From positions 1,344,001 to 1,408,000 of the forward strand of contig CAXXLL010000002.1 of assembly GCA_963662545.2 (NCBI GenBank): a stretch of 64,000 bases of DNA, written 5' to 3'. The DNA comes from Gammaproteobacteria bacterium (lineage in GTDB: Bacteria > Pseudomonadota > Gammaproteobacteria > Ga0077536). A program made the position numbers and the translations under genes. Of the stretch, positions 4,664 through 9,204 are shown piece by piece (within the stretch, counting starts at the first letter, position 1; each line of letters starts with the position of its first letter). The notes below the pieces were generated by a model, which had not been told where the DNA came from, did not search any database, and was given only the letters and a program-made list of their open reading frames with translations.

Positions 4664-5821
4664 TTAAACTGCATTACGCTTTCGGAACAAGCCCAAGCCT
4701 GCAACGGCCATTCCCAATAGGGCGAGGCTGGGGGGTAAGGGAACAACGGCGCTGGCGTCCACGATGTACAGTCCTCCGTCCAGGTCACTCAGGAGCACTC
4801 GGTCCAGCCCGAGGAACGGGTAGACGCCCCAATTGCCGTCGAGGCCGGAGACCGCACCCGGGAACGTGTCGTACTCCCCGAGATGAAGCGGGTCCATTGG
4901 GTCGGAGATGTCAAAGACCTGGAGACCGGCCTGATACCAGGATACGAACAAGAGATCGCCCACGATCACCGGGTTGTGGGGGGAAAATGCATCAATGCCG
5001 AGTTCAGTTGCGGTTAACGAGGACAGTAACGACGGTGCGCTCGGATCGGAGATGTCGAAGATCCGAACGTCGCCACCATTCAATTCTCGGGCACTGACCA
5101 GGGTGTTGCCATCCGCGGTGACCCAGTTGCTGTGTGAATTCGAGCCCGAGCTCACCGTGCCCAGCAGGTCGGCGGTTCCGTTGGCGATATCCGAGCTGTC
5201 ATAGATGTCCGTGGTTCCCCCGAATCCTGAGGTAAACAGTCGGTCGTTGACGACGGTTATGTCGTGTATGAAGTTCGGATCGGTCGTGATGATGTTACGC
5301 ACGAACAGTGGCGTCGACGGCGTGCGGACGTCGAACACCTTGACCACATTGGTTCCACTGGCCGCCTCATAGAGGAATCCGCTGTCAACGAAGAGGTTGT
5401 GCACGTTGTTATAACCACTTTCCGTCGACGTCACCGACGCGACCAGGCTCGGAGCAGCGGGCGTCGACAGGTTCACAATATGGACGCCGCCGCCGTTGTC
5501 GCTACCGAAATACCCGATGCCGTTCTCGATCTTGATGTCCTTGAACTGCCCTCCGCTGGCCGGGTTGTAATGGCTCGCGAGAAACGGCGCGCCCGGATTC
5601 GAAATGTCGATGATCCCAACGCCGGAACCCCCTGACGAGCCGATGTAGGCGTAGTCGCCGGCCCCCCAGATATCGCCATAGCGATTGTTTCCGGCGAACG
5701 GATCAAGCTGGCCGACAAGGTTGAACTGGAGCGTTGCCCCGACCGGCAGCGATAATGTCCATCCCAGCATCAATGCTAGAAACCCGAAACGGAGCATGTA
5801 ATTTATCGTGTTCTTCATCAT
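4664..5821 (-). CDS. LVIVD-repeat (choice-of-anchor B-like) protein with a PEP-CTERM-type (VPLP) sorting tail
   Basis: Signal peptide; repeated 'GxxIxDISxPxAP' units; C-terminus VPLPPSLALLGMAVAGLGLFRKR (motif, TM helix, basic tail). Confidence 0.85.
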   Translation of the reverse strand: MMKNTINYMLRFGFLALMLGWTLSLPVGATLQFNLVGQLDPFAGNNRYGDIWGAGDYAYIGSSGGSGVGIIDISNPGAPFLASHYNPASGGQFKDIKIENGIGYFGSDNGGGVHIVNLSTPAAPSLVASVTSTESGYNNVHNLFVDSGFLYEAASGTNVVKVFDVRTPSTPLFVRNIITTDPNFIHDITVVNDRLFTSGFGGTTDIYDSSDIANGTADLLGTVSSGSNSHSNWVTADGNTLVSARELNGGDVRIFDISDPSAPSLLSSLTATELGIDAFSPHNPVIVGDLLFVSWYQAGLQVFDISDPMDPLHLGEYDTFPGAVSGLDGNWGVYPFLGLDRVLLSDLDGGLYIVDASAVVPLPPSLALLGMAVAGLGLFRKRNAV

Positions 5822-6117
5822 CGCCTCAAACGATAAAACCGAATTGGCTCAATCGACTAGCAATGTGGATATCGGGGACGAACCACGTTTTAAGCTCTAA
5901 TGACATGTGCGTTTTTGAATACGCAAGCAAGGTAGATCGGCTCAAATGAGACTCTTCTCCAATCTACATACAATCTGGGTGAAAGTCTGGTTTGATCCCG
6001 CTTTTCGGAATTATGTGTGGGCGCGTTTTCGGCCGGAAAATCGGAAAATCGCACACAGCCCAGCCGCCATTAGCGGCAACCCGGCTGGCAAAGAAAAGAG
6101 AAAAGAGGAAAGGTGTC

Positions 6118-6200
6118 AAGAAAAGAGAAAAGGTGTCAGGTTTATTTACATCCGTTCGCTATCTACCGAAAAAAATAAACCTGACATCTTTTTTTTCGTA
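6118..6200. repeat. REP-like palindromic repeat, copy 1
   Basis: Arms aaaaggtgtcaggtttattt (6128-6147) and aaataaacctgacatctttt (6173-6192); loop contains ccgttcgctatctaccgaa. Confidence 0.8.
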
Positions 6201-6297
6201 CAGGCCAATACCGAAAGGCGTAAACCCGTCCTATCAGTGGTATTCGTTGGTGCGCGCCTCATTGCCAAGCAACTTCAAATCCGGCGCTCAACTTTAT
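6199..6297 (+). repeat. 99-bp inverted copy of the IS4 transposase 3' region (6401-6499)
   Basis: Reverse complement of 6401-6499 with 3 substitutions; encodes QANTERRKPVLSVVFVGARLIAKQLQIRRSTL. Confidence 0.95.
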
Positions 6298-6321
6298 AAG
6301 AAAAGGAGAAAAGGTGTCAGG

Positions 6322-7661
6322 CTGAGGGATCCCCACAAATTCGACTAGCAAAATTCAAGTTGCACAATGGCGCGTGCCTGTAGATCCCGGAGCGCCTGTA
6401 ATAAAGTTGAGCGCTGGATTTGAAGTTGCTTGGCAATGAGGCGCGCACCAACGAACACCACTGATAGGACGGGTTTACGTCTTTCGGTATTGGCCTGTAA
6501 ACCTTTCACTAAACCTGTTTGGTAACCGACCAAGCCGACCAACCATTGGGCCAGTGTGGCCAATGCGCACAGCAAGAGTAAGTTCGCCACTCTCTCGGGA
6601 TCACGTCCCATGTTTTCTCTAAGTGCAAAGCCGTAACGGGGCGACTTCATGTCGCGGAAGCTCTCTTCAATCTGCATGCGGCGACGATACACGGCAACTA
6701 CCCGATGCGCACTACGAAGGTTGTCCGGCAGATTGCTGGCCAATAACCACGGCTCACGCGCCGCTGCCGACGGTTTCTCGGTATTGCGAGCCCGCGCCGG
6801 TTTGCCGTAAGCCGTATAGCAGACACGCCCGCGTTTCTTACCTTTGTAAACGAATAAATGGGTGTCCAGCGGATTACTTTTCGTGATCAAAAAACGACCC
6901 AGTGACTTCGGACGAGCATTGGCTTGGCCGTAGAGCACTTTGTTCGAATGCCATGCCGCCTCATCCATACCTCGCACGAGGTGACGATGACGGATGCGAC
7001 CCACGTAATACCATCCCATTGAGGCCACAAGACTCAACCAGGGCGTCCGAAATCCTGCATCACTGACCAAGATCGGACAACAGCCCGCAGGCAGAATGGC
7101 CTTCAGTCGCTTCAGAAAGCGTTTCTCCGCTTTGACACTCGCGTAATGGTGTTCGACTTCTTCATACACGGGGATGGCTCGACCACCGACCGCTAAGGCC
7201 GCCCGCAATACATAGAGCTCTTGACGTTGATCCAGATTAGACCAATCCACCAACACCACCGGATGCGCACAGTCCGATACCAATAACCGAGCTATCCATT
7301 GATACCACTGCAAACGCTCACCACCGAGCTGACGATTACCCAGCAAGCGATCGACGCGCTTAATCGCGTGTTTCTCGCTCGTGCCACTGTCTATGCTCCG
7401 ACCGATATGCGTCAGCCACAAACGTCGGCCCCGAAGTAAACCGCCGACCGCCGCCCAAACCGAGAGTCGACGACCCAAATGCACACCGTATAGCGCTTCG
7501 CTGCTCATTTCATGTAACAATTTCAATACCTGCATGGCTCACCTCGTCGTTCACAGATTGTCTTGCAACAACTGAGATCAACTCGAGCCATGCAGGTTCC
7601 ACGAACCCACAAATCAATCTATCGCTTTGTATTTCGTTGGGGTTTTATGGGGATTCCTCAG
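6322..7661 (-). mobile_element. IS4-family (IS10-like) insertion sequence, 1340 bp
   Basis: Ends ctgagggatcccca / tggggattcctcag resemble IS10 IRs; 9-bp target duplication ggtgtcagg at 6313-6321 and 7662-7670. Confidence 0.93.
6345..7535 (-). CDS. IS4-family DDE transposase
   Basis: KHAIKRVDRLLGN, VLVDWS, ILVSDAGF and YRRRMQIEESFRDMKS (YREK-type) motifs. Confidence 0.95.
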   Translation of the reverse strand: MQVLKLLHEMSSEALYGVHLGRRLSVWAAVGGLLRGRRLWLTHIGRSIDSGTSEKHAIKRVDRLLGNRQLGGERLQWYQWIARLLVSDCAHPVVLVDWSNLDQRQELYVLRAALAVGGRAIPVYEEVEHHYASVKAEKRFLKRLKAILPAGCCPILVSDAGFRTPWLSLVASMGWYYVGRIRHRHLVRGMDEAAWHSNKVLYGQANARPKSLGRFLITKSNPLDTHLFVYKGKKRGRVCYTAYGKPARARNTEKPSAAAREPWLLASNLPDNLRSAHRVVAVYRRRMQIEESFRDMKSPRYGFALRENMGRDPERVANLLLLCALATLAQWLVGLVGYQTGLVKGLQANTERRKPVLSVVFVGARLIAKQLQIQRSTLLQALRDLQARAIVQLEFC

Positions 7662-7775
7662 GGTGTCAGGTTTATTTAGAGCCGTTCGCTATCTACCGAA
7701 TAAATAAACCGGACACCTTTTTTCGTAGCTCGCGTGCGTGCCAACGCCAGCACGGAGGACGGCGGGGAATCGCTT

Positions 7776-9204
7776 CTAAACGGCCGTCCGCGCGATCTCG
7801 CTGACAATACGTTCGAGATGCCTTAGAGATCGGCAGGGTTCCACCCGATCGCAACACGCGCTGAGCTTCCGCATCTCGGAATCCCCCGTATTCCAGAACG
7901 ATCTGGGCTCGGGGTTCAGCCACAGGACGCGGCGCGCCCGTGCGTGAATGCGCCGCAGCGAGTGATCACCGGGGTCGCCGTAGTTGGAACGGCCGTCTCC
8001 TAGGATCAATACCGTTGTGCGGTGATCGATATCATGTAGGGTCAGGCGCTCGAGTTCAGCCAGGGCACCGCCGTAATCGGTCGATCCCTGGCCGTATTGC
8101 TTGAGCGTCTGCGCCAGCGCGACCTCGATCGACTGCGCCTCGAATAGTTCAGTGACTTCGCCAAGCTGATTCGAGAACGCAAATGCGCGTACCTTGGGGA
8201 TCACCTCGGTGATGCTGTAAAGGAACATCAGCAGGAAGCGCGCGACGGACGCGACCGATCCGGAAACGTCGCAGACGGCGATCACTTTGGGTCGATCGAC
8301 CCGGATTCGTTTCCACACCGTGTCGAACAGCAGGCCGTCGTATTCGATGTTGCGCCGAATGGTATGACGTACGTCCAGTTGTCCGCGGCGTGCGACGCGG
8401 CGCCGTCGTGAATGCAGTGCGATGAGGCGCTTTGCCAGCTTACGTACGAGCTCCTGCATGACCTTGAAATCACGCATTTCGACTCGGGCGAGAGGGGTCT
8501 TGTGGAGTATCTCTTCGCGCAGACGCGGCCAGGCATTGGCCGCGTACATCAGCATTTGTCGATCGACGATCTGGCTTACGTCTTCGACGAGACGCGCCTT
8601 GAGTAAACGTAGTCGTTCGAGTCGCTCGTCGCCGGAATCATCCGCGCGCGCGAGTTCGAACAAGCGGTCTTCGACTTGCCCGATCCCCATGTTTTCGAGC
8701 ATCCGGCGCATGTACATGCCGCGCTGCGTGAACATCCGGATGTTCTGAAGCTCGACCTTGCGCGCCGCATTGGCCATCATCTGCTGCAGGGCTGTGGCAT
8801 CATTCTGTTCGAGCACTTGCAGCAGGCCGCCGCCATTACCGCCTGCCGTAATGCCGCCGCCGTCCCGCTCTTCATCCGCGGCAAGGACAGGAGTTACATC
8901 AAAGGCCAGCGATATACCTTGCTCTCGCGTTCGGTGGACCCTTATCTTTATCGAACCGTTCAGCCCCGTGGTCGCGCCCGCCGCCGACATTTTCGAATGT
9001 GAAAAATCTATCGAAACACTGGCGGAAGCGTGTCTTGTCGTCTCGCGTTTTAGCTAATACCTGGGACAGGGCTTCTTTGAGCAGCTTGCGATCGTTGAAT
9101 CCGACGGCCTCGAAGGTTGCCGCGGCATCGATGGTTTCGGCGGTCGACACCCTCACGTCGGCCGCTCGCAGGGCGCGAATGAAATGACTGAGTACTTGGG
9201 TCAC
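7776..9204 (-). pseudogene. VWA-domain CoxE-like protein, frameshifted (N-terminal part 8899-9204, C-terminal part 7776-8990)
   Basis: 'FIRALRAADVRVSTAETIDA' and 'VCDVSGSV...LILGDGRSN...WLNPEP' lie in different frames; overlaps the MoxR stop. Confidence 0.8.

What the first reader, a model, noticed from the sequence alone, without database searches (positions are those of the whole stretch)
6118..7727. Repeat-spacer-repeat unit whose spacer is a captured piece of the transposon that invaded it
Seen: two ~83-bp palindromic repeats (6118-6200; 6298-6321 plus 7671-7727) share the loop ccgttcgctatctaccgaa and a tttttcgta end. They bracket a ~97-99-bp segment (6199-6297) that is an inverted copy of the IS4 transposase 3' region (6401-6499) with 3 substitutions. 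The same IS is inserted in repeat 2. The substitutions suggest the fragment came from another or an older IS copy rather than a trivial read duplication. Inference: either (a) REP-like repeats capture foreign fragments, giving an RNA-based anti-IS memory, since read-through from the transposase gene would fold into a ~99-bp duplex; or (b) a scar of repeated IS insertion and abortive excision at a hotspot. No cas or RAYT gene is in the window.
Basis: partly seen in the sequence, partly recalled or inferred. Interest (0 to 1): 0.7.

Follow-up and report, generated by a model that had tools for sequence, protein, structure and literature searches.

The report
Insertion-sequence relic between two palindromic repeats
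A dead 99-base scrap of a jumping gene lies between two copies of a palindromic repeat that this jumping gene habitually inserts into, with a live copy next door; it looks like a scar of repeated hits at a hot spot, not an immune memory.

Summary
Two ~83-bp palindromes (6118-6200; 6298-6321 + 7671-7727) bracket a 99-bp inverted copy (6199-6297) of window 6401-6499, with 3 mismatches. A 1340-bp IS (6322-7661) splits repeat 2 and is flanked by a 9-bp duplication, GGTGTCAGG. Short-read contigs from two studies cross the repeat 1/fragment and fragment/repeat 2 junctions without a difference.

The palindromes are REPIN-like. Their arm (GGTGTCAGGTTTATTTA) flanks, in inverted orientation, a REP-associated tyrosine transposase-like gene about 134 kb away. 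The IS is IS10-like (IS4 family). Seven of its 11 copies sit in the stem base of this small repeat family.

The fragment comes from a different, probably older, IS allele. It has 5 differences from the consensus, 4 of them synonymous, and one is the state seen in a sister species' IS. All 4 differences between the resident IS and the consensus fall inside the 99-bp homologous stretch (P about 3e-5), and 3 of them match the fragment. This points to gene conversion.

No other repeat pair in the genome holds a mobile-element piece. There is no array, and the only Cas1 hit lies on another contig.

One feature is unexplained: in the IS, the fragment is bounded by an 8-bp direct repeat (GCCTGTAA, 99-bp period).

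Verdict: a recombination scar at a REP hot spot, of modest interest. Transcription could not be tested.

The parts
6090..6117 (+). Partial third copy of the purine-rich leader plus the first 6 nt of the repeat arm (ends ...GGTGTC)
   Evidence: family D2: 6091-6114, 6118-6141, 6299-6322
6118..6200 (.). Repeat 1: a complete REPIN-like palindrome (leader AAGAAAAGAGAAAAG, arms GGTGTCAGGTTTATTTA / AAAATAAACCTGACATC, loop with CCGTTCGCTATCTACCGAA, T-run, CGTA)
   Evidence: (I3)
6199..6297 (+). 99-bp relic. It is the reverse complement of IS positions 80-178, so its + strand reads in the sense of the transposase C-terminus. It differs from the resident IS at IS positions 94, 135 and 159, and from the consensus IS at 94, 123, 141, 153 and 159
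   Evidence: (I1)
6298..6321 (.). Repeat 2, left part: leader plus the first 9 nt of the left arm (the target duplication at 6313-6321)
6322..7661 (-). IS10-like IS4-family insertion sequence, 1340 bp, with terminal inverted repeats CTGAGGGATCCCCA... / ...TGGGGATTCCTCAG
6345..7535 (-). Transposase gene, 396 aa, intact. The protein is identical to that of the consensus copy
   Evidence: PF01609, 58.4 bits; NF033591, 313.5 bits
6394..6401 (+). First copy of the 8-bp direct repeat GCCTGTAA (IS positions 73-80) at one border of the source of the fragment
6493..6500 (+). Second copy of GCCTGTAA (IS positions 172-179), 99 bp after the first, at the other border of the source
6444..6474 (.). Patch of 4 synonymous substitutions (IS positions 123, 135, 141, 153). 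These are the only differences between this IS copy and the consensus; three match the fragment
7662..7727 (.). Repeat 2, right part: second copy of the target duplication (7662-7670), rest of the left arm, loop, right arm, T-run, CGTA
   Evidence: (I6)

Best explanation
The two palindromes are REPIN-like elements: two inverted REP arms around a spacer. They belong to a small family of about 13 hairpins plus some single arms. The family's arm also flanks a RAYT-like tyrosine transposase gene elsewhere on the contig.

An IS10-like insertion sequence preferentially inserts into the 9 bp at the stem base of these palindromes, next to the A/T runs, so this intergenic spot is an insertion hot spot.

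The 99-bp piece is a non-functional remnant of a second, probably older, allele of the same IS. It became lodged at the junction of a local duplication of the palindrome through illegitimate recombination or template switching. The exact route is inferred, not shown.

A young copy of the IS later inserted, or persisted and was homogenised, in the left arm of the second palindrome. The relic allele and this copy form inverted repeats 103 bp apart, and they then exchanged a short patch by gene conversion.

Shown: the anatomy, the target preference, the allele difference, the clustered patch, and the reality of the junctions.

Inferred: the order of events, how the piece got there, and the lack of function.
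For: Anatomy and target duplication.

Copy census: 10 full IS copies, 1 interrupted copy, a 119-bp relic and this 99-bp piece.

Target preference: 7 of 11 copies lie in the GGTGTCAGGTTTATTTA arms. That is 6 of 10 events if the twin copies in a duplicated flank count once. The 9-bp duplications are identical in 10 of 11 copies and differ by 1 nt in one. Three of the remaining 4 copies lie beside '...GTCC CCTTTT' motifs (two of them in GGGGACAT-type hairpins); the fourth (C2:1455447) has CGGTGTACC followed by CCATTG and appears to lie inside a coding region. The second relic (C3:158985-159107) also abuts an arm of a same-loop hairpin.

RAYT-like gene flanked by inverted arms: PF01797, 35.8 bits, above cut-off; I2: 19 nt, 95%; NF047646, E 2e-20.

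Allele evidence:
- The fragment differs from the consensus at 5 of 99 positions. Four of these are synonymous.
- 141T equals the state in the 93%-identical IS of congener G001.
- No full copy in G000 carries the fragment's haplotype.

Gene conversion evidence:
- All 4 of the 4 differences between the resident IS and the consensus lie in the 99-bp homologous stretch, P about 3e-5.
- The same patch is in copy C3:2701239, but not in its twin C3:2693620, which sits at the same site of a duplicated segment.

Local duplication: rep1 and rep2 share the leader AAGAAAAG(G)AGAAAAGG and the end TTTTTTCGTA. The three other same-loop family members do not.

The orthologous site in two congeners has no palindrome.

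Junctions are seen in contigs of 2-3 studies.

REP-targeting by IS elements, including an IS4-family member, is in print (PMC1525189, passages read).
Against: - The patch haplotype in the resident IS (123C, 135C, 141T, 153T) is not identical to the fragment's (123C, 135T, 141T, 153T). The fragment itself may therefore not be the donor, or an extra change is needed.
- A simple 'old IS decayed in place' history does not explain why the relic keeps neither IS end and abuts the repeat units exactly.
- It also does not explain why its two borders fall at the same position of an 8-bp direct repeat in the IS. That holds for only 91 of 388,980 arbitrary start/length pairs.
- Junction microhomology is at most 2 nt (read).
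- The repeat family is small for a REP family. The RAYT-like protein scores 73 bits, below NCBIfam's cut-off of 80.
- Lack of function is inferred. No RNA data could be examined.
Confidence: 0.72

Rival explanations
1. One-step replication error. While the palindrome was being copied, the nascent strand switched to the IS sitting at this site, copied 99 nt of the opposite strand, and switched back to the start of the palindrome. This made the duplication and the inverted filler at once. The resident IS was later homogenised against the other copies, except for the patch.
For: The fragment lies exactly at the junction of the two repeat units. The source region is only 103 bp away and inverted. 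The divergence of rep1 from rep2 (69 of 86 aligned positions identical, in an alignment that includes the differing flanks and has register shifts; about 6 substitutions plus indels by my own reading of the core) is not clearly different from that of the fragment from the consensus (5 of 99). Palindromes and IS ends are known stalling sites (established knowledge, recalled).
Against: No microhomology beyond 2 nt is seen at either switch point. The first repeat unit lacks the IS, so a further slip across the IS must be assumed. Homogenising about 1300 bp while sparing 31 bp is less economical than one short conversion tract.
Confidence: 0.12
2. Sequence-specific cut-and-paste. A 99-nt piece was cut out of an IS allele at the two GCCTGTAA motifs and joined between two palindromes. 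The agent could be the REP-associated HUH tyrosine transposase acting on single strands, or a restriction-type nuclease followed by end joining.
For: Both source borders lie at the same position of an 8-bp direct repeat (2.3e-4 of arbitrary pairs). The motif region GCCTGTAAACCTTTC resembles the repeat arm plus trailer CCTGACACCTTTTC (read). A RAYT-like gene tied to these arms exists. The allele differs from every resident copy, which fits an outside source.
Against: - None of the 11 present IS copies has a palindrome inserted at, or a break at, these motifs.
- No common motif is seen at the outer borders of the repeat units.
- By my reading, the RAYT-like protein has NPIHLL where this family usually has its His-hydrophobic-His motif. 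That comparison is recalled and not tested.
- No Ku gene was found in the 96.85%-complete genome.
- It is a single case.
Confidence: 0.1
3. One reading: the unit is a functional anti-IS device. Read-through of the transposase gene, or a promoter at the repeat/fragment border, gives RNA complementary to the 3' part of the transposase mRNA. The 99-bp duplex is cut and lowers transposition.
For: The minus-strand RNA 6520-6100 folds into the long duplex (-246.6 kcal/mol, z = -22). Repeat 1 on the minus strand is a hairpin followed by a T/C-rich run. A weak promoter-like pair lies at 6320-6291 on the minus strand. The junction is kept in a slightly different strain (X13).
Against: It is a single unit, not an array. 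No other family member holds a piece of this IS besides the second relic. The only Cas1 hit is on another contig. The promoter count does not exceed shuffles (2 found against 1.6 expected). Ten full copies of the IS, 99.6-99.7% identical to the window's copy, show that the element has spread recently despite the unit.
Confidence: 0.04
4. Assembly artefact: the inverted 99 bp was created by mis-joining reads of the multi-copy IS.
For: IS copies are a classic source of misassembly. No long reads were available.
Against: Contigs from independent short-read assemblies cross both fragment junctions with 0 differences. The fragment has its own haplotype, found in no IS copy.
Confidence: 0.02

Closest known systems
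REP-targeting insertion sequences (IS1397, ISKpn1, ISPpu9/10, ISPa11, and ISRm22 of the IS4 family; Tobes & Pareja 2006, PMC1525189, passages read)
   Same: Most copies of one IS sit at a fixed position inside an extragenic palindromic repeat. The broken halves of the repeat flank the IS. Imperfect duplications and hybrid flanks arise from recombination between copies.
   Different: This IS is IS10-like (about 40% amino-acid identity to elements annotated IS10A) and has a 9-bp duplication. It hits the outermost 9 bp of either arm, next to the A or T run, in both orientations. It also uses a second palindrome family (GGGGACAT...). The repeat family is very small.
REPIN-RAYT systems (Bertels & Rainey; abstract of PMC3337134 seen in the listing)
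   Same: Two inverted REP arms around a spacer. The spacer is copied with the element: 5 members share one loop. The elements are extragenic, and a single tyrosine-transposase gene is flanked by the same arms in inverted orientation.
   Different: There are only about 13 hairpins. The arms are A+T-rich with A/T runs and so look like two-way terminators. The RAYT-like protein is below NCBIfam's cut-off (73 against 80 bits). No family member was found in two congeners beyond a single hit with 2 mismatches.
IS10/Tn10 (IS4 family)
   Same: The transposase family, the length (1.3 kb), the 9-bp target duplication and the CTGA...ATCCCC-type ends. The properties of IS10 are recalled, not taken from a call.
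   Different: The target is not the symmetric hot-spot consensus recalled for IS10. The antisense control of IS10 acts at the 5' end of the mRNA from inside the element. Here the complementary piece lies outside the element and matches the 3' end.
CRISPR arrays
   Same: Superficially, repeat - foreign-derived segment - repeat, with palindromic repeats.
   Different: There is one 'spacer' only. The repeats are 83 bp and about 80-90% alike. The 99-bp segment is cut at a direct repeat. There is no leader and no adjacent cas gene. The repeat is a dispersed family that otherwise flanks ordinary DNA.

Membership tests
IS4 family, IS10-like | DDE transposase of the IS4 type | tested here: met
   PF01609 58.4 bits against cut-off 23. 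NF033591 'IS4 family transposase' 313.5 bits against cut-off 152. About 40% identity over 91% of the protein to plasmid genes annotated 'IS4-like element IS10A family transposase' (H8, H12).
IS4 family, IS10-like | Terminal inverted repeats and a fixed-length target duplication (9 bp) | tested here: met
   Ends are CTGAGGGATCCCCACAAA / reverse complement CTGAGGAATCCCCATAAA. The 9-bp duplication is identical in 10 of 11 copies and differs by 1 mismatch in one.
IS4 family, IS10-like | Several near-identical copies at unrelated sites | tested here: met
   10 full copies (the other 9 are 99.6-99.7% identical to the window's copy) plus one interrupted copy. At least 5 full copies at 93% identity in congener G001.
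REP/REPIN-RAYT | Two inverted copies of a conserved arm around a spacer, dispersed in the genome | tested here: met
   20 arms with at most 1 mismatch to GGTGTCAGGTTTATTTA. 10 clear and 3 degenerate hairpins, with varying loops.
REP/REPIN-RAYT | Extragenic location | tested here: met
   Crude test: over 12 hairpins, the longest stop-to-stop frame covering a whole hairpin is 0-146 aa. No gene calls were available.
REP/REPIN-RAYT | A Y1 (HUH) transposase gene flanked by the same arms in inverted orientation | tested here: met
   C2:1485504-1486004 (L029 1105-1605), 166 aa. PF01797 35.8 bits against cut-off 23. Arms at L029 1024-1042 and 1818-1836 are 95% complementary. NF047646 scores 73 bits, below its cut-off of 80, so the equivalog call is not reached.
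REP/REPIN-RAYT | Tens to hundreds of copies; active catalytic motifs in the RAYT | tested here: inconclusive
   Only about 13 hairpins. No solved relative was found by sequence for a residue check. The apparent NPIHLL in place of the usual His-x-His is my reading against a recalled motif.
CRISPR-like array | Three or more regularly spaced repeats with different spacers, next to cas genes | tested here: not met
   This is the only pair of family members within 300 bp of each other. No other flank holds a piece of this IS apart from the second relic; three flanks carry other, unidentified multi-copy repeats. The one Cas1 hit is at C3:2782300, on another contig.
Diversity-generating retroelement (template/variable repeat pair) | Mismatches confined to adenines of one repeat | tested here: not met
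   On neither strand, and with neither partner taken as template, are more than 2 of the 5 differing positions adenines (worked out). A reverse transcriptase was not searched for.

The most novel reading that the evidence does not exclude
The 99-nt piece was excised from a foreign or older IS allele at two copies of one 8-nt motif and ligated between two REPINs by the REP-associated tyrosine transposase. That would be the first natural example of a RAYT moving non-REP DNA. The resulting inverted repeat makes read-through transposase mRNA fold into a 99-bp duplex that dampens the IS, so a REPIN pair would have become an accidental antisense brake on the element that targets it.
Probability: 0.05. 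Interest if true: 0.7.

Novelty: new member of a known kind. Interest (0 to 1): 0.3.

Why it matters
The locus is a clean natural record of three processes acting at one spot:
- an IS10-like element homing to the stem base of REPIN-like palindromes;
- loss of an earlier IS allele down to a 99-bp relic;
- gene conversion between a relic-type allele and a live copy, visible as four clustered synonymous changes.

It adds an IS10-like case to the list of REP-targeting insertion sequences. It also shows how relics can feed variation back into active copies.

The direct-repeat-bounded shape of the relic is a small open puzzle. It could bear on what REP-associated transposases can cut.

The locus does not point to a new defence or memory system.

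Tried and rejected
- Rfam scan of 5800-7800 at E up to 1: three matches (two eukaryotic miRNA families and a Staphylococcus sRNA), all far below their gathering scores. No known RNA family.
The 'terminator-like' label therefore rests on my reading of stem plus T run only.
- PDB sequence search gave nothing for the IS transposase or for the RAYT-like protein.
- An exact 53-mer of the fragment in metagenome contigs gave 0 matches.
- IS variants carrying the fragment's haplotype were searched for in 41 relatives and 81 genomes of the family. Only G001 (93%) and two distant hits (74-76%) were found, and none carries the haplotype.
- No RNA holder is listed among the 22 runs, so expression could not be examined.
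- Ku was not found in the genome.
- The diversity-generating retroelement idea was rejected on the mismatch pattern.
- I tried to derive the structure from the following: simple in-place decay of an inverted IS; fold-back priming; a TA-core site-specific crossover; two REPIN insertions into an old IS followed by ectopic conversion. Each fits some junctions and fails or needs extra steps at others (read). None is adopted.
- 'CGTA' as ancestral flank: congener G002 has CGTAG a few bases before the conserved downstream sequence. The paralogous copy in G000 does not, so this is not usable.
- The earlier scan notes on this genome concern other repeat families and were not tested here.
Full report
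**1. What is there**

The window is G000:C2:1344001-1408000. Between the start of an LVIVD-repeat gene (4664-5821, minus strand) and the end of a VWA_CoxE gene (7776-8990, minus strand), the sequence reads as follows:
- a partial purine-rich leader plus 6 nt of a repeat arm (6090-6117);
- a complete palindrome, rep1 (6118-6200);
- a 99-bp segment (6199-6297);
- the left 24 nt of a second palindrome (6298-6321);
- a 1340-bp insertion sequence (6322-7661);
- the rest of the second palindrome (7662-7727).

The IS is bounded by the inverted ends CTGAGGGATCCCCA... / ...TGGGGATTCCTCAG and by a 9-bp direct duplication, GGTGTCAGG (6313-6321, 7662-7670).

The repeat finder reports the 99-nt inverted repeat 6199-6297 / 6401-6499 at 97% with 103 nt between the arms, and it reports the stems of both palindromes.

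**2. Is it real DNA?**

Contigs of public runs were laid on 5700-6420.
- In X1 and X2 (two studies), a 7352-nt contig covers 5700-6282 with no difference. It crosses the rep1/fragment junction.
- Contigs of 81 and 86 nt cover 6253-6333 and 6253-6338 with no difference. They cross the fragment/rep2 junction.
- X13 (a third study) has a 463-nt contig over 5786-6248 with 2 differences.

One of these runs may be the source of the assembly, and these are contigs, not long reads. The rep2/IS junction is covered only by contigs with fewer than 31 letters on one side. No listed holder is on record as RNA.

**3. The insertion sequence**

The 396-aa product matches Pfam DDE_Tnp_1 and NCBIfam 'IS4 family transposase' NF033591 at 313.5 bits. 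It is about 40% identical to plasmid genes annotated as IS10A-family.

The genome holds the following:
- 10 full copies (the other 9 are 99.6-99.7% identical to the window's copy);
- one copy interrupted by other DNA (C3:2701239-2698201);
- a 119-bp relic of the right end (C3:158985-159103, 95.8%);
- the 99-bp piece.

Among 41 relatives, only congener G001 has the element, at 93% identity and in at least 5 full copies. Among 81 genomes of the family, only G001 and two distant hits (74-76%) appeared.

**4. The palindromes**

The 17-nt arm GGTGTCAGGTTTATTTA occurs 20 times with at most one mismatch. The arms form 10 clear and 3 degenerate hairpins with different loops, plus single arms. Five members share the loop seen here: rep1, rep2, C2:749057, C3:159108 and C3:1257205. 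No long open frame covers any of 12 hairpins tested.

A search of the genome for Y1 transposases gave 7 hits. One of them, C2:1485543-1485872, lies inside a 166-aa ORF. That ORF is flanked by the arm on both sides in inverted orientation (L029 1024-1042 and 1818-1836, 95% complementary). The protein matches NCBIfam 'REP-associated tyrosine transposase' over the full profile at 73 bits, just under the cut-off of 80.

A second Y1 gene (C3:2366322) is flanked by GGGGACAT/ATGTCCCC motifs, the core of a second palindrome type.

By the definition in the abstract of PMC3337134, the palindromes are REPIN-like. The family is small, however. It was not found in two congeners or in two other family members beyond single hits with 2 mismatches. 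The orthologous site downstream of the VWA gene has no palindrome in G002 or G001.

**5. The IS homes to the palindromes**

Seven of the 11 IS copies interrupt an arm of this family at its outermost 9 bp, next to the A or T run, in either orientation. Two of the seven lie at the same site of a duplicated segment, so this is 6 of 10 events. Three of the other four lie beside '...GTCC CCTTTT' motifs, two of them in GGGGACAT-type hairpins; the fourth (C2:1455447) has CGGTGTACC followed by CCATTG and appears to lie inside a coding region. The second relic also abuts an arm. The G001 copies abut similar '...CC(C)TTTT' contexts.

REP-targeting by IS elements of five families, among them ISRm22 of the IS4 family, is described in PMC1525189 (passages read). 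The behaviour is therefore of a known kind.

**6. Where the 99 bp came from**

The fragment is the reverse complement of IS positions 80-178.
- Against the majority sequence of the copies it differs at positions 94, 123, 141, 153 and 159.
- Against the resident copy it differs at 94, 135 and 159.
- Against the interrupted copy C3:2701239 it differs at 135 and 159.

No full copy carries its haplotype. Four of the five differences from the majority are synonymous in the transposase frame, and only position 94 changes Q to R. This suggests that the differences arose in a working gene rather than by decay in place. My rough estimate is a chance of about 0.02 if a quarter of random changes were synonymous.

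At position 141 the fragment has the state of the G001 element, while most G000 copies have a derived G. The other relic is also 4-5% diverged and shares two states with G001.

**7. Gene conversion**

The resident IS differs from the majority at exactly four positions: 123, 135, 141 and 153. All four lie inside the 99 bp that are homologous to the fragment. The chance of that for four independent changes is (99/1340)^4, about 3e-5.

Three of the four equal the fragment, and all four are synonymous. The same patch is in copy C3:2701239, whereas its twin at the same site of a duplicated segment (C3:2693620) lacks it. Short tracts have therefore moved between copies.

Position 135 (C in the two IS copies, T in the fragment and the majority) does not fit a single transfer from the present fragment. 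Either one more change occurred, or the donor was another copy of the same allele that is now lost.

**8. How the piece got between the repeats**

Rep1 and rep2 share a leader (AAGAAAAG(G)AGAAAAGG) and an end (TTTTTTCGTA) that the other same-loop members lack. They therefore look like a local duplication with the fragment at its junction. A third, partial leader (6090-6117) shows further slippage.

Both outer flanks have paralogues about 200 kb away that bracket 1233 bp of other DNA: 6015-6091 is 93.5% identical to C2:1554704-1554628, and 7728-7799 is 91.7% identical to C2:1553395-1553324. The homology ends exactly at the outer borders of the repeat block.

Junction microhomology is at most 2 nt (TA).

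In the IS, the source segment is bounded by the 8-bp direct repeat GCCTGTAA (positions 73-80 and 172-179), and both breaks lie at the same place in it. This holds for 91 of 388,980 arbitrary start/length pairs. The fragment is thus exactly one 99-bp period.

I could not derive the whole structure from any single simple mechanism (see Tried and rejected). Candidates are template switching during replication of the palindrome, or a sequence-specific cut at the two motifs. The motif region also resembles the repeat arm plus trailer.

**9. Function**

A minus-strand RNA running from the transposase gene through the IS end would fold into the 99-bp duplex, and rep1 would follow as a hairpin with a T/C-rich run. 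This is the only basis for an antisense role. The evidence on an antisense or memory role is:
- promoter-like hexamers at 6320-6291 do not exceed shuffles;
- no RNA data were available;
- no Rfam family matches;
- no second repeat-fragment-repeat unit exists;
- Cas1 is found once, on another contig;
- the IS has spread to 10 full, near-identical copies.

I therefore rate a memory or defence role at a few per cent.

**10. Verdict**

The locus is a new instance of known kinds: REPIN-like repeats with a RAYT-like gene, and an IS that targets them. Two features deserve mention: a conversion patch linking a relic-type allele to live copies, and the direct-repeat-bounded relic.

I did not test it.

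Noticed in passing
window 8875-8929: A micro-element of about 55 bp interrupts the VWA_CoxE gene. The G002 ortholog is continuous across the site, and the window's gene is split into ORFs 8899-9204 and 7776-8990. The 55 bp are 100% identical at 20 other places in the genome.
   Followed up: partly
window 6015-6091 and 7728-7799; G000:C2:1553324-1554704: Both outer flanks of the repeat block have paralogues (93.5% and 91.7%) that bracket 1233 bp of unrelated DNA, itself containing internal duplications. The homology stops exactly at the borders of the repeat block.
   Followed up: partly
G000:C2:1485504-1486004 (L029 1105-1605): A RAYT-like gene (166 aa) flanked by the arm of the palindrome family in inverted orientation. 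The protein reads NPIHLL where I recall a His-x-His motif, so it may be inactive.
   Followed up: partly
G000:C3:158985-159170: A second relic of the IS (right end, IS positions 1218-1340, 95.8%). It lies between a GGGGACAT-type palindrome and a same-loop member of the GGTGTCAGG family, and shares states 1279A and 1320A with the G001 element.
   Followed up: partly
G000:C3:1786480-1790573: Two IS copies in inverted orientation, each inserted in a palindrome of the family, bracket about 1.4 kb. The layout resembles a composite transposon.
   Followed up: no
G000:C3:2698201-2701239: An IS copy interrupted near position 1020-1026 by about 1.7 kb of other DNA. It carries the same 4-substitution patch as the window's copy, while its twin at C3:2692281-2693620 in a duplicated segment does not.
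   Followed up: partly
G000:C2:961416-961424 and 962765-962773: The two copies of the 9-bp target duplication differ by one base (CCTGTCACC against CCTGACACC). This could be a mutation or a hybrid made by recombination between copies.
   Followed up: no
G000:C3:2366322-2366660: Another Y1 transposase gene with GGGGACAT / ATGTCCCC motifs on both sides. It is possibly the RAYT of the second palindrome family that the IS also hits.
   Followed up: no
run X1, loose end at window 6174: Two contigs continue from a same-loop palindrome arm into CTGAGGAATACCC..., an IS-like end that differs from the window's IS. It may come from a related strain or element in that sample (table 7).
   Followed up: no
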